Positions 6 to 39,400 of a stretch of DNA of 64,000 bases are shown here, piece after piece. Source of the stretch: Ascidiella aspersa (lineage: Eukaryota); assembly GCA_963924565.1 (NCBI GenBank), contig OZ004609.1, positions 18,786,001-18,850,000 on the forward strand. Direction: 5' to 3'. The notes below the pieces were generated by a model that was not told the DNA's origin, searched no databases, and was given only the letters and a program-made list of their open reading frames with translations. Positions within the stretch are counted from its first letter, which is position 1. Each line of letters starts with the position of its first letter. The position numbers and the translations under genes are program-made.

Positions 6-1779
6 TCTGAAATATTATTTCCGAACTGTGGCATGACCTTCAATAGTCTACAAAGAACAGCAAATCGATGGGGTACAGCAGAAACCGCATCCAGCAAGTT
101 GTTAACAACAGGAAAGTTTTGCTCTGAAATAAATATATATATAAATAAATTGACTGGAAAATATTTTACCTTAATGTGTTATTCAAACTAAAACAATCAC
201 AAAAAAGTGTTAAGAGCAACGATAATAAAATGTATGTAGATAATTATGATAAACAAAATCATTTAGATGTAACAAAGAAATATGCAACTCTCAAATAAAG
301 GTTCTGTGTTCAAAAAATAAGCTTTAAGTATTGAATGAATTCCATACTTGTTTTAAGAACTTTTAGCTTTACTTACCTAGCTTTAAAACATAATCACACA
401 AAGCTCTTCCAACATTACTTATCCACATATCAAAAACAATCCTAACATTATGGAAATATAGACCTTGCACATAAAATATCATCATAGAAGGGACAAATAA
501 ATGTAGTATTTAATATGTTTTTGTTCAAAAGATCAGTATTCTAAAGGCCAAGATATTATTCTGATCCATTTTTTTTTTTTTTTTTGAAATTCATTTTTTG
601 TTTTGTGGTAGAAAATATACTATATACTGTATTAACTGTTTAGAGGGTAAATATCATAAGTCAACAGTATACAAGATTTTAAAAGAATTTTTTTCTATGC
701 ATTTAAATCTGCAGTTCAAAATGTTGGTTTGCACAAAACTGATACCCACATATATCACTTGGCAATTTATTAATTTGATCACAAATACTTAAAACTATCA
801 TTTTTTCCATATTGTCAATTTTACGTAAAATGATTACACTGAAAGTGTGTTAGTCTGCATTCTGTGTTCTGTTAAAGAGGCACAGTCGAAGATTTTTAAG
901 AAGTTTGTGTGAACACCAGACTTAAAACCTACACACCTTAATCTTTCTGCCTTGATAGCATAACACCGCTATGGTGTGCAACTGTACATAAACTTGATTT
1001 CACCTAAAACTTCTGCGCTTCACACCTAAGAAACCAGTCTGTATTTTCTGGCACTTTACTCTGAAATTTGGGTGTACAAGGCAAAATTTTGAGGTGTGCA
1101 GGTTGCAATTATTTTTTTGCAAACCTGAGGTTTCGGAATGCTACTACAATTTAAACAAAATTTAGGTGGGTAATATACAAATTCAGGTGTGGACACAAAT
1201 TGCTTTAATAAACTATTTTTGGTGGGCATTTGACACTGCAGACTGGGCAAGATATTCCAAAAAACTGCCATAAGATGTACTGGCCGCTTTACGGTGCACA
1301 GTAAGGAGATTATATAACTGTCCTAAACAATACAAATTGCAGCAAACTATTATAATTTAGCCATTGCCAGTCTCAATAGGTATCAGCTATATATTTGAAC
1401 AAAATTCAGTTTACTTTCCTACAATAAATGTTTTAATAATTAAAATCTAAAAATTATATCAAAACCTTTCTTTACATTTACATAAAATTATACTAATTTA
1501 ATTTATTTCCAATATTTAAGCTCTTAATTATAAATCAATATCTTCTATTTTATTCTTCAAGTTATTAATTCACATATGAGTCCTTTAATTGTAAATAAAA
1601 AAACATTAAACCAGACTCAAACTAAAATTGCTGACTATAATTAAAGCTTACCCACACAATGACTTAAATGTACTGACCTCAAGAAGGCTACGACATGTTC
1701 TTCTCCATTGTTGAAGAATTCGTTGACGACGTCTTCCAGTTGCAGGTCCAGGCTTGTTGACAGATTTGCTGGTTCGACC
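6..1779 (-). CDS. Unidentified multi-exon protein-coding gene, partial; exons 1678-1779, 377-441, 6-123; continues past the left edge and 5' exons are unresolved
   Basis: Three segments bounded by AG/GT with matching phases (2, then 1) join into one open frame: VEPANLSTSLDLQLEDVVNEFFNNGEEHVVAFLR-IVFDMWISNVGRALCDYVLKLE-QNFPVVNNLLDAVSAVPHRFAVLCRLLKVMPQFGNNIS. The family is not recognised, and the acceptor at 1779 is a best guess. Confidence 0.6.
895..1210. repeat. Degenerate inverted-repeat (MITE-like) remnant in an intron
   Basis: tttaagaagtttgtgtgaacaccaga (~895-920) is an imperfect reverse complement of tcaggtgtggacacaaattgctttaa (~1182-1208), with internal acacct/aggtgt motifs. No TSD found. 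Confidence 0.35.
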
Positions 1780-5248: not shown

Positions 5249-18314
<13,066 letters not shown>

Positions 18315-36444: not shown

Positions 36445-39400
36445 TTAGGTTTGAAGGGTGAATCGGGATCGCGTAGCCGACTTAACAAAGCCGAGGAGGG
36501 GCGTCGACTTGGAGCGGGTTAAATGTTGGTGACAAGGTTTAGGCGAAACCAACGGCGTCGAGATGCTCTCGGAGCGGCCTCTATCTTTGCTGGCGGGAAG
36601 CGACGAACTGCGTTGGACTCCGGCTTTGATTGTCTCCATCCGCCTGACGATGTCTCGGACGCCGACACCGGGCGATTTCGGTTTGCTCACGTCCTCCGAT
36701 GACTTGGACTTGCTGGCCGCGAACGGGTTCGGTTGTGACGCGGTCTCAGAGAGCCGGCGACATGTAGCGCTAGAGAGCCAGGTCGGGCGCCAGGTGGAGC
36801 GTTCGGATTGAGTACGTCTCACCCTGACCCCCTTGATGTGGAACCGTGAAACACTCGGAGGTGAACACGATGTACCCCGGACCACCTTCGGGGGCCTGTA
36901 AGGTGCCGCCGACCATAGGTTTGCAATGCCGGCCCTGATAGTTGAAGAGCTGACGTCACGTGTGGGTGACGTGGTGTCTTGTTGTTGAATAGTCCTTGTC
37001 GGTGACGAAACAGCTTGCGGTTGGTCGATAGAGAATTTGCCGACGAGGTCGCGTACGCTACTTTCCGAAACACAGGCATCACCATCTCCCTTGCTATTTT
37101 CCGGAGGAATTCCCCCCATGAGCAATTTGTTAATTAGAGTGGTTGGCGATGAATCAGTTTTAGCAGAGGGTGGACTAATCGGTTCGCTCAATATCTTGTC
37201 TTTAGATTTCTTTGACTTCGATCCCCTTCTCGTTAGCTTTTTAAGGTGCTTTTCTATCTCTCGCGCCATCTGGCGGACACGCCCTGCTTTCTTGGACGGT
37301 TGCGTGGTGGCGCCCGTGAGGTCGTCAGCAGAGAACGAAGTAGAGAACGAAGACGAACGACTGCTTTCTACCGAATCGCTCAACAACTGTGTTCCGACCT
37401 GTCGCGAGAAAGTTCTTAGGTCGAGCATAAACAGTAAATACAGCTGCTACCTTGACCAACGAATACGGCTTAGGTATCATTAGTACACCGAAAGCTATTT
37501 CAGACTCACCGAATCTTATTAATGATGCAAGCAGGGCAGGCTAGAAATACAAATAGCCTGTAGTGAGGTTCGAACTCACGACCTACGGTCATACCGCGAC
37601 CGTCGCTCTACCAACTGACCTAATCGAACCTCACTGCAGGCTAGTTGTTTTTGCAATGTACTGATATATCGGTTTTTGATTTACATGTCGATTAACACAC
37701 ATCACAAAATACCAACTGAATGGTACACAAACAAACTTTGGTTACACTATATACCAGTGTTTCCCAACCTTTTTTACACTAGTGCCCCCTTGGGCTCAAT
37801 ATTATTTCATATCGCCCCCCTCATCTTGCTTTACAGTAAAGTATCATATTAATCGTTGTCTAACATCATATTGACTTCACATTCGTTTCGATAAGCTGTC
37901 AGTCATATTTTAGGTTGTCTAACATACATTCACTATGCTAGGAATTTATAGATACATTAATTCACCAGGTTATGTCATTACCCAAAATTCAAATTTCTGC
38001 ACCAATACTTTAAATCAAGGGTCGGCAACCTTTTCTTGTCACGGGCACTAATCAAACTCATAAAGGTGTGGGCCGCACAAAATGTTAACTTAGAATTGTG
38101 TTATTGGAATGTTAGAACAACTGTGAATCAGGCGGACCTCCGATTTTTTTCATCCACCACTACTAATGAAAAGTGTAATAAAGCTACTTTAACACGATAA
38201 CTTTAATAGATAGTGTAATTCAGTGTTTGTTAAGCTCTTTAAGTCCTGGCGCACCTGGCGAGCGAAGCGAGCGCGATTTTTTTTTGGGTATACTAACATT
38301 TATTTTAAATTTCGTGCTAGTATTCATTACATTGCTAAAAAAAAAATAAAAAAATGGTAAAATATATGTCTAATATTTTTTAATACGTTTTCCGTTTGTC
38401 CGCACAGGTAACAAGCGCTTATCTATTGCAAAGACAGCATGAAAACGTAAACAAACTGGACGCAGAAAGATCAAGAAAAATGTTTGCCCGTTCTAAGTTA
38501 AAATAGTCAAAAAGTATTTAAAATGGACTTGTGTCTAGTTTTCAAAGAGGTGGCGGGCCGTAAGTTGGCGCCCCCTGCTTTAAATATACAAACATTTTGC
38601 CACGTATAAAACTGTGAAACGCAACAACAACCAACAACTTTACATAAGAAAGTCAATTATTACGTAACAATGGTCCGAAAACTACTACAAGTTCGCAGTA
38701 CGAAAGTTGCCATTTAAGGTTAAAAGTTACCTACAGTCCTGTTTGTTACTATTTATATGTGAACTTTTCAATTAATTTTGCCATAAGTACTTTCATGTAA
38801 CGCCCCCTTATATGCATTCAGCGCCCCCCAAATTAGAAACAGACCCAAAACGCCCCCTTGTAACTCACCAACGCCCACAGGGGGGCGGTACCGCCCACGT
38901 TGGGAACCTCTGCTATATACGGATCTGTTCATAAGTTTAATGGTGAAAATAACAGCCCAAATAGACGTAAAAAGCGACATGCTTATTGTTCAAACGTATC
39001 TATCGTTTTTGCGACGCTTGTTTCGCACATTTTTATCATTCCTTTATGCGACTGTGTAACTGATGTGGCCTTTATATCACTGATGATGGCACAAGCATTT
39101 GCCGAAACGTTTGAACAATAAAGCATGTCGATTTTTACGTCTATTTGGGCCGTTATTTTCACCATTAAACTTTGGTTAGCTATATATAACCATTAGGTTT
39201 ATCTTACCTCTCTGATACACAAGAGAAGTTCCGGTGACATTGGGCCGCTGGGTTTCGCATCGCTCCAATCCTGGGTTTTGTTCGGCAGTACAAGTTTGAT
39301 AGGCTCTGGCTTTACAGGTGACGATATTACGAGGGTTTCAGGAGCCAAACCACAGTCGGCCAGGTTGTTATTGTTACTGTTTGAATTTGCATTGGCAAGC

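What the first reader, a model, noticed from the sequence alone, without database searches (positions are those of the whole stretch)
38933..39172. Hammerhead ribozyme motif whose downstream tail is duplicated in inverted orientation, inside an SSH intron
Seen: CTGATGA-t-GGCA..TGCC-GAAA-CGTT-TGA on the + strand (antisense to SSH), followed by AATAAA. A near-perfect inverted copy of the downstream ~65 nt (38933-38997) stops within about 5 nt of the predicted cleavage site (after 39111). Known: Penelope-like retroelements carry minimal hammerheads with a palindromic, reduced stem III in their terminal repeats, and often have inverted partial repeats. Inference: this is a Penelope-like or retrozyme-like insertion whose inverted end marks the self-cleaved RNA terminus. 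It also places a ~65-bp hairpin about 35 nt downstream of an SSH splice donor.
Basis: partly seen in the sequence, partly recalled or inferred. Interest (0 to 1): 0.7.

Follow-up and report, generated by a model that had tools for sequence, protein, structure and literature searches.

The report
Head-to-head Penelope retroelement end stump
This hairpin in a Slingshot phosphatase intron is the two head-to-head ends of a Penelope-type jumping gene, one of several hundred such stumps in the genome; it carries a known minimal self-cutting RNA motif that faces away from the host gene, and the family's inner ends pile up at a likely transcription start rather than at the predicted cut site.

Summary
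The minimal hammerhead (39077-39114, + strand) and the ~65-bp inverted arms are real. The feature is one short insertion of a Penelope-like element (PLE). Its arm 20-mer has 599 exact matches in the genome, control 0, and relatives link directly to RT and GIY-YIG coding sequence. It has a 12-bp target duplication and a one-sided tail, later split by a hAT-like insertion. Eight of 9 hammerhead pairs covary across five PLE families.

The claim that the inverted end marks the self-cleaved terminus is not supported. This arm runs 4-5 nt past the cut. Among 99 arm ends from 58 loci, 9 lie within -5..+4 of the cut (7.6 expected), while 25 lie at -38..-33, about 31 nt after a TATA box: a likely transcription start. 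The motif is antisense to SSH, this copy has lost the TATA box, and its hairpin is predicted to bury the cut site. This architecture is already described for PLEs. The scan noted the same shape in this genome and the same pile-up in shark genomes. Ordinary mobile DNA, with one useful mechanistic side-result.

The parts
37733..37744 (.). Left copy of the 12-bp target-site duplication (AAACTTTGGTTA)
   Evidence: Identical to 39167-39178. Family TSD median 11 bp; 39 of 58 loci at 10 bp or more versus 1.5% in shuffled pairs
37745..37754 (-). Outer end of the PLE tail; 37747-37754 is also one copy of the 8-bp duplication made by the later hAT-like insertion
   Evidence: Continues the family tail seen in other copies. 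CTATATAC at 37747-54 and 38913-20
37755..38912 (.). Later, unrelated hAT-like composite insertion (short TIRs, 8-bp TSD) that split the PLE tail
   Evidence: TIRs and TSD; loose read ends at 38912/38913. The hAT label is recalled from the TIR and TSD pattern, not tested
38913..38932 (-). Rest of the tail, present on this end only; codes for about residues 17-23 of the element's ORF
38933..38997 (-). Left (tailed) arm: element sense on the - strand, from -5/-4 to +61 relative to the hammerhead cut; holds only the 3' half of the ribozyme
38997..39076 (+). Upstream pLTR sequence of the tailless arm, starting at -132. A 17-nt deletion between 39053 and 39054 removes the family's TATA box. The family's 5'-end pile-up maps to 39074 and 39076
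   Evidence: Alignment to natural copy L007; end mapping; TATA position
39077..39114 (+). Minimal type I hammerhead: 3-bp stem I, CUGAUGA, bulged U, stem II, GAAA, palindromic AACGUU in place of stem III; predicted cut after 39111
   Evidence: Sequence; covariation across five PLE families; intact in 27 of 43 family pieces that span it, this copy included
39104..39172 (+). Right (tailless) arm; AATAAA 39117-22; ATG at 39125 opens the conserved ORF N-terminus (M-S-x-x-T-S-I-W-A-V-I-F)
39167..39178 (.). Right copy of the 12-bp TSD, overlapping the arm end by microhomology
39206..39207 (-). Predicted splice donor GT of the Slingshot intron (39207 to 37399) that holds the insertion
   Evidence: AG|GTAAGA and phase-0 frame continuity; no spliced read listed

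Best explanation
This is one short, 5'-truncated, head-to-head insertion of two ends of an endonuclease-bearing Penelope-like retrotransposon, flanked by a 12-bp target duplication, likely made by two reverse-transcription events on uncut element RNA and likely inert now. Shown: family membership, RT + GIY-YIG parentage, TSD, one-sided tail, a conserved minimal hammerhead between a TATA-like box and the ORF start, and loss of the TATA box in this copy. Inferred, from the anatomy plus the in vitro PAc results in PMC11167929: the endonuclease nicked both strands of an AT-rich target about 12 bp apart; one nick primed cDNA at the end of the tail and the other at the start of the tail; the two cDNAs stopped at -5 and -132 and were joined with 1 nt of microhomology. 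The outer ends are therefore RT start sites and the inner end is a truncation point, not a ribozyme cut. In the family the commonest inner end (-38/-36) is likely run-off at the capped 5' end of pLTR-initiated RNA (about 60% for that step). In the SSH pre-mRNA the ribozyme is antisense, and the insertion would only form a ~68-bp hairpin.
For: Copy number: 599 exact arm 20-mers, control 0; 320 exact matches to the 5' part of the hammerhead, control 0. Parentage: L006 and L033 join the repeat to GIY-YIG coding sequence. L051 holds a broken RT (RVT_1 E 6e-6, below Pfam's cut-off) plus GIY-CxC-YIG frame directly before the repeat. That frame is 52% identical to an intact 848-aa sister ORF with RVT_1 E 2e-9; a second sister ORF has RVT_1 and a weak GIY-YIG hit. 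Insertion shape: TSD of 10 bp or more in 39 of 58 loci, 79% AT. All 40 of 58 loci with arms on both strands are head-to-head, and 37 of 39 two-arm copies have exactly one tail (p = 1e-9 against 50:50). In 26 of those 37 the tailless arm reaches further upstream than the tailed one, as here, so it cannot be a fold-back copy of the tailed cDNA. Hammerhead: 8 of 9 pairs show two-sided changes, including C3-G8 to U3-A8; 0 of 500 shuffles reach this; slid controls give at most 2. Inner ends: 25 of 99 at -38..-33 (p = 3e-11) versus 9 of 99 at -5..+4 (p = 0.35). G precedes 10 of 17 ends at -38/-36 (p about 0.004). In sister family B the TATA box lies 5 nt further upstream and the cluster shifts upstream with it: 13 of 52 ends at -11..-7 from the core. 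PAc cuts and extends both strands from two RT start sites that bracket the tail, and uncut RNA is its main substrate (PMC11167929, parts 1-2 of 4 read).
Against: No intact ORF of this exact family was found among 125 scored of 654 candidates, so the parent is seen only as broken copies. Pfam did not recognise this family's own GIY-YIG part. The transcription-start reading has no RNA support: (about 6% of one run) listed no read-start pile-up and no reads on the ORF part of L051. The family B cluster is broad (-13 to -6), its anchor cannot see ends downstream of -6, and A precedes 6 of 13 ends, as often as G. The G count is not corrected for junction microhomology. Three of 99 ends map exactly at the cut by exact extension (2 of them ambiguous), so a small cleaved fraction is not excluded. 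The covariation set (7 sequences) was picked with a hammerhead descriptor and the structure was set by me, which leans the count towards it. Minimum-energy folds of the monomer and homodimer do not give the full active hammerhead.
Confidence: 0.9

Rival explanations
1. The inner end of the inverted arm marks the 5' end of RNA cut by the hammerhead.
For: The arm stops 4-5 nt from the predicted cut. Three of 99 family ends map exactly at the cut, one of them (L111) without ambiguity.
Against: The arm carries 4 nt from the upstream side of the cut that the partner piece does not explain. No enrichment around the cut: 9 of 99 observed, 7.6 expected. In PAc, ribozyme mutants insert normally and uncut RNA is the main substrate (PMC11167929).
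Confidence: 0.04
2. The identity is the same, but the -38/-36 pile-up comes from RT stalling or template-switching at a small RNA hairpin just upstream of the ribozyme (-51 to -33), not from a transcription start.
For: A 7-bp hairpin at 39061-39079 forms in the minimum-energy fold of 39060-39125. Long stems are a plausible place for RT to pause (recalled, not tested). No RNA start was seen.
Against: The peak is two sharp positions about 31 nt after TATA, has excess upstream G, and shifts with the TATA box in family B, whose upstream sequence is unrelated.
Confidence: 0.3
3. The inversion arose by self-priming (fold-back) on one strand, as proposed for Adineta PLEs, instead of two target-primed cDNAs.
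For: PMC3846280 (passages) proposes self-priming from palindromes at inverted junctions. Some copies here join at the AACGTT palindrome (L112).
Against: Here each arm holds sequence that the other lacks (tail on one side, -132..-6 on the other), and the junction has 1 nt of microhomology. The arms differ in reach by more than 10 nt in 35 of 37 copies.
Confidence: 0.12
4. It is a MITE-type DNA transposon whose arms are TIRs, or a retrozyme.
For: Long near-perfect inverted arms. A chance 8-mer (GCTATATA) lies near both ends.
Against: Arm length, centre and which side has the tail all vary. TSDs are 10-13 bp. The arm encodes the N-terminus of an RT-endonuclease ORF. The left 8-mer is part of the family tail plus the last base of the hAT-like insert.
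Confidence: 0.01
5. The hairpin has been co-opted to tune SSH splicing or to be A-to-I edited.
For: A ~68-bp duplex starts 35 nt after the donor. The right junction is present in contigs of two samples of one study, one of which may be the source.
Against: It is a young copy (9 mismatches in 176 nt to L007). The donor is outside the long stem. The A>G and T>C differences in reads also stand in DNA contigs of other copies, and 81% of laid reads run on into unlike sequence.
Confidence: 0.05

Closest known systems
Insertion unit of EN+ Penelope-like elements (Penelope/Poseidon type; Pen2a_Av of Adineta vaga, PMC3846280; summary in 10.1101/2021.04.23.441226 = PMC8557442)
   Same: pLTR plus adjacent inverted truncated pLTR, ~30-bp tail on one end only, short TSD, pLTR holding the first codons of the ORF, TATA/Inr-like motifs, RT followed by GIY-YIG (passages read).
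   Different: This copy is only the two ends, with no ORF body. The family is unnamed in my calls. Its tail is split by a later insertion and its TATA box is deleted.
[quoted passage not shown]
   Same: Type I, no real helix III, palindromic 15.2-16.2, unpaired base between positions 9 and 10.1, G10.1-C11.1 pair, opposite-strand pairs 100-700 bp apart, and a U3-A8 core variant (sister family in L054).
   Different: Stem II is 5 bp and stem I is 3 bp, shorter than the S. mansoni consensus described there. No activity assay exists for this family. The paper's supplements (alignments, table S1) were not seen and may list this lineage.
PAc (Poseidon from Anolis carolinensis; Frangieh et al. 2024, PMC11167929)
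   Same: Hammerhead overlapping or next to the ORF start, two RT start sites bracketing the tail, AT-rich targets, no sign that cleaved RNA is the template.
   Different: Here the evidence is genomic only. The conserved N-terminus begins at an ATG 12-13 nt after the cut. The strict one-tail-per-insertion coupling and the 5'-end pile-up are not discussed in the parts and passages I read.
Animal non-LTR retrozymes (10.64898/2026.07.22.740005; abstract and outline only)
   Same: Hammerhead-bearing, non-coding, derived from PLE pLTRs according to that abstract.
   Different: Retrozymes are described as tandem arrangements. These copies are dispersed, variably truncated and head-to-head with TSDs.

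Membership tests
EN+ Penelope-like element | RT followed by C-terminal GIY-YIG endonuclease in the parent element | tested here: met
   L051: RT motifs and RVT_1 E 6e-6 (below cut-off), GIY-CxC-YIG frame directly before the repeat; 52% identical to an intact sister ORF with RVT_1. Parent copies of this family are broken.
EN+ Penelope-like element | CCHH motif with two cysteines between GIY and YIG | tested here: met
   VVYRLKCSCGKTYIG followed by two histidines in the L033 frame; motif as described in passage. Read by eye.
EN+ Penelope-like element | pLTR that includes the ORF start | tested here: met
   The arm and tail translate to the same N-terminus that opens the 848-aa sister ORF.
EN+ Penelope-like element | Inverted 5'-truncated end with a 30-40-bp tail on one side | tested here: met
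   Outer ends are bimodal near +58 and +87..91; 37 of 39 two-arm copies have one tail.
EN+ Penelope-like element | Short variable TSD in AT-rich target | tested here: met
   12 bp here; 39 of 58 loci at 10 bp or more, control 1.5%.
Penelope/Poseidon clade | Phylogenetic placement; no extra Zn-finger in the RT-EN linker | tested here: inconclusive
   No extra Cys/His cluster seen by eye in the linker. No tree was built.
Minimal hammerhead ribozyme | Conserved core with stems I and II and palindromic stem III remnant | tested here: met
   Rfam models give no hit.
Minimal hammerhead ribozyme | Self-cleavage (monomer, dimer or protein-assisted) | not testable with these tools
   Needs an in vitro assay. 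Minimum-energy folds do not show the full active fold.
Non-LTR retrozyme | Tandem head-to-tail monomers with a hammerhead in each | tested here: not met
   58 sampled loci are dispersed single or head-to-head stumps.
MITE / TIR DNA transposon | Fixed symmetric termini with a fixed-length TSD | tested here: not met
   Asymmetric ends, variable centres, 10-13-bp TSDs.

The most novel reading that the evidence does not exclude
The family's stumps are a fossil record of the Penelope insertion reaction. Each insertion uses both RT start sites once, one per target strand (37 of 39). The template is uncut RNA whose capped 5' end lies only 4-6 nt before the hammerhead core, about 31 nt after a TATA box. 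The ribozyme would then sit in a ~50-nt leader between cap and start codon and act to decap or switch off the element's mRNA, not to define the ends of the inserted DNA.
Probability: 0.5. Interest if true: 0.45.

Novelty: new member of a known kind. Interest (0 to 1): 0.2.

Why it matters
The locus itself matters little: it is a promoterless stump whose ribozyme faces away from the host gene. The family statistics matter somewhat more. How PLEs build their inverted ends, and what their hammerheads do, are stated as open in the papers read. The counts here argue against cleavage defining the inserted ends and for two coupled priming events on uncut, probably capped RNA. They give exact positions to test by 5'-RACE and in vitro with an intact sister ORF from the same genome.

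Tried and rejected
Rfam scan at E up to 10: no hammerhead family among 10 hits. Unconstrained monomer folds were no better than shuffles (z 0.03 and 0.29) and did not give the full hammerhead; the homodimer cofold did not either; this is uninformative for a dimer- or protein-dependent motif. Pfam on this family's C-terminal 318 aa: 0 families. Sequencing-run search: no RNA holder listed by index; one raw RNA run was added by species label. Laying about 6% of that run gave low exon depth, no listed splice joint and no locus-specific editing signal, and no read-start pile-up or ORF reads on L051. The 8-mer GCTATATA as TSD was rejected (tail sequence plus last base of the hAT-like insert). A first end-mapping with L034 as reference was dropped because that copy has a 6-nt duplication in loop II that shifts coordinates; L007 was used instead. 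Literature searches: 'Penelope-like + hammerhead + ascidian' gave 0 papers; 'Penelope + pLTR + transcription start + inverted + tail' gave 3, with 2 listed; at least 4 of 'Penelope-like, pLTR, non-templated, cap, truncation' gave 7, with 6 listed and none of those holding 'non-templated'; the five-term extra-G search gave 0. These searches cover only the held library, so absence from print is not shown. No phylogeny, structure prediction or large protein-database search was run.

Full report
1. Observation. The 256-nt stretch folds into one long hairpin, z = -15.5. The host gene is Slingshot-like on the - strand. A GT-AG, phase-0 intron from 39207 to 37399 joins two long frames; spliced reads were not among the joints listed. 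Rfam does not score the motif; the paper on minimal hammerheads found them with its own descriptor.

2. What it is. A search of the window's genome gave 115 matches from 40 scored of 712 candidates, and a 20-mer of the arm occurs 599 times against 0 for the control. One copy (L006) continues into GIY-YIG coding sequence. Following it led to L033/L051, a near-full but broken element with RT motifs, a CxC-bearing GIY-YIG domain and then the same repeat. The arm of the window copy is 93% identical to L051 over 88 nt. The C-terminal frame is 52% identical to an intact 848-aa sister ORF; sister ORFs score RVT_1 above cut-off and one gives a weak GIY-YIG hit. The sequence just after the ribozyme encodes the element's N-terminus in this and three other families.

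3. Anatomy of this copy. From left to right: a 12-bp TSD (37733-44); the tail, split at an 8-bp duplication by a 1,158-bp hAT-like insertion (37755-38912); the tailed arm on the - strand reaching -5/-4 relative to the cut; a junction with 1 nt of microhomology; the tailless arm on the + strand from -132 through the ribozyme to +61; and the second TSD (39167-78). The + arm differs from natural copy L007 by 9 mismatches in 176 nt and a 17-nt deletion that removes the TATA box.

4. Family sample. One search listed the first 100 of 599 matches (C1 and the start of C2). I held 70 loci from them, dropped 9 that overlapped another locus or one already held and 3 segmental duplicates, and kept 58 loci with 99 arm-bearing pieces. 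Left out of the count: listed places already held from earlier searches (L007, L010, L012, L035, L049), further units of a tandem array on C1, one likely duplicate at C1:40.12 Mb, and a second element in L129. Results: TSD of 10 bp or more (one mismatch allowed) in 39 of 58, median 11, against 1.5% for shuffled pairs. Forty of 58 have arms on both strands, all head-to-head; 37 of 39 two-arm copies have exactly one tail. In 26 of 37 the tailless arm reaches more than 10 nt further upstream, in 9 the tailed arm does, and 2 are level.

5. Is the hammerhead real? Seven natural motifs from five families align without gaps. Eight of 9 pairs show two-sided changes, 92% of cells pair, 0 of 500 shuffles match, and slid controls give at most 2 such pairs. 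One family swaps C3-G8 for U3-A8, a variant also reported in PMC4209133. The motifs were picked with a descriptor, so this count leans towards the structure. Within the family, 27 of 43 pieces that span the motif keep it intact, this copy among them. Activity is untested. PMC4209133 reports no monomer cleavage and low dimer cleavage for a schistosome motif, and PAc's ribozyme needed protein.

6. Does the inverted end mark the cut? Not on this evidence. The left arm has 4 nt from upstream of the cut that the partner piece does not supply, so its template most likely crossed the site uncut. In the family, 9 of 99 ends lie in -5..+4 where 7.6 are expected (p = 0.35); by exact extension 3 of 99 fall on the cut, 2 of them ambiguous. 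By contrast 25 of 99 lie in -38..-33 (p = 3e-11), 17 of them on two positions, -38 and -36. These are about 31 nt after a TATA box. G precedes 10 of the 17 (p about 0.004, not corrected for microhomology); untemplated G at full-length LINE-1 and SVA 5' ends is read as a copy of the cap (PMC4859970, passages). In family B the TATA box is 5 nt further from the core, and 13 of 52 distinct ends (from 53 of 115 matches examined) fall at -11..-7 from the core against 13 in the next 30 positions. That cluster is broader and its G excess is weak (6 G, 6 A, 1 T). RNA reads gave no start pile-up at low depth. I put run-off at a transcription start at about 60% and stalling at a small hairpin at about 30%.

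7. Mechanism. Shown: parentage, TSD, one-sided tail, head-to-head geometry, end distributions. Inferred: both target strands were nicked and each primed a cDNA, one at each end of the tail, and the two were joined. This rests on PAc cleaving and extending both strands from two start sites that bracket the tail (PMC11167929) and on each arm holding sequence the other lacks. Self-priming (PMC3846280) remains possible for copies that join at palindromes. For the host: the ribozyme core is antisense in SSH pre-mRNA, no AATAAA lies on the host-sense strand, and the donor is outside the long stem. In a + strand transcript the left arm is predicted to pair with the cut site. Differences in RNA reads match other family copies in DNA contigs, so editing could not be judged.

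8. Comparison and novelty. The layout matches the described PLE insertion unit (passages of 10.1101/2021.04.23.441226 and PMC3846280) and the motif matches the described minimal hammerheads. For D. virilis Penelope, PMC2377424 describes a TATA-less internal promoter with an intron (passages), unlike the TATA-spaced site inferred here. Supplements of these papers were not opened and may name this lineage. My reading, including the pile-up, was stated before I saw the scan's notes. Those notes report the same shape in this genome and the same start-before-the-ribozyme pattern in shark genomes; they are unchecked and not independent support, but one gave me the lead to PMC3846280. The host is called a sea squirt in those notes; I did not test that. 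Verdict: a new member of a known kind, interest 0.2.

Noticed in passing
window 37755-38912: hAT-like composite insertion with short TIRs and an 8-bp TSD, sitting inside the PLE tail, so it is younger than the PLE copy. It appears to hold further nested repeats (very high contig depth).
   Followed up: partly
window 37545-37652: tRNA-like sequence (37563-37622, - strand, 25.6 bits, below Rfam's cut-off) between 29-nt inverted arms. Very high contig depth; contigs of X1 and X2 show a form lacking 37548-37597.
   Followed up: no
window 39171-39186: The target around the right TSD resembles the reverse complement of the element's tail end over about 16 nt. Could be RNA-target pairing or chance; not obvious by eye in other copies, not counted.
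   Followed up: no
L054:3637-3668 (G000:C4): A sister PLE family with intact 843-aa ORFs has a hammerhead with the U3-A8 core variant and a 6-bp stem II, preceded by a TATA-like box.
   Followed up: partly
L052, L053, L054, L055, L066: At least two sister PLE families keep intact or near-intact 816-880-aa frames, some in tandem, and may be recently active.
   Followed up: partly
window 38982-38990: The host-sense arm has lost one A, so it lacks the AATAAA that the family arm would place in the sense strand of the SSH intron. One event; selection cannot be told from chance.
   Followed up: no
window 16836-17165 and 15541-15692: Near-perfect tandem duplications of about 167 and 76 bp.
   Followed up: no
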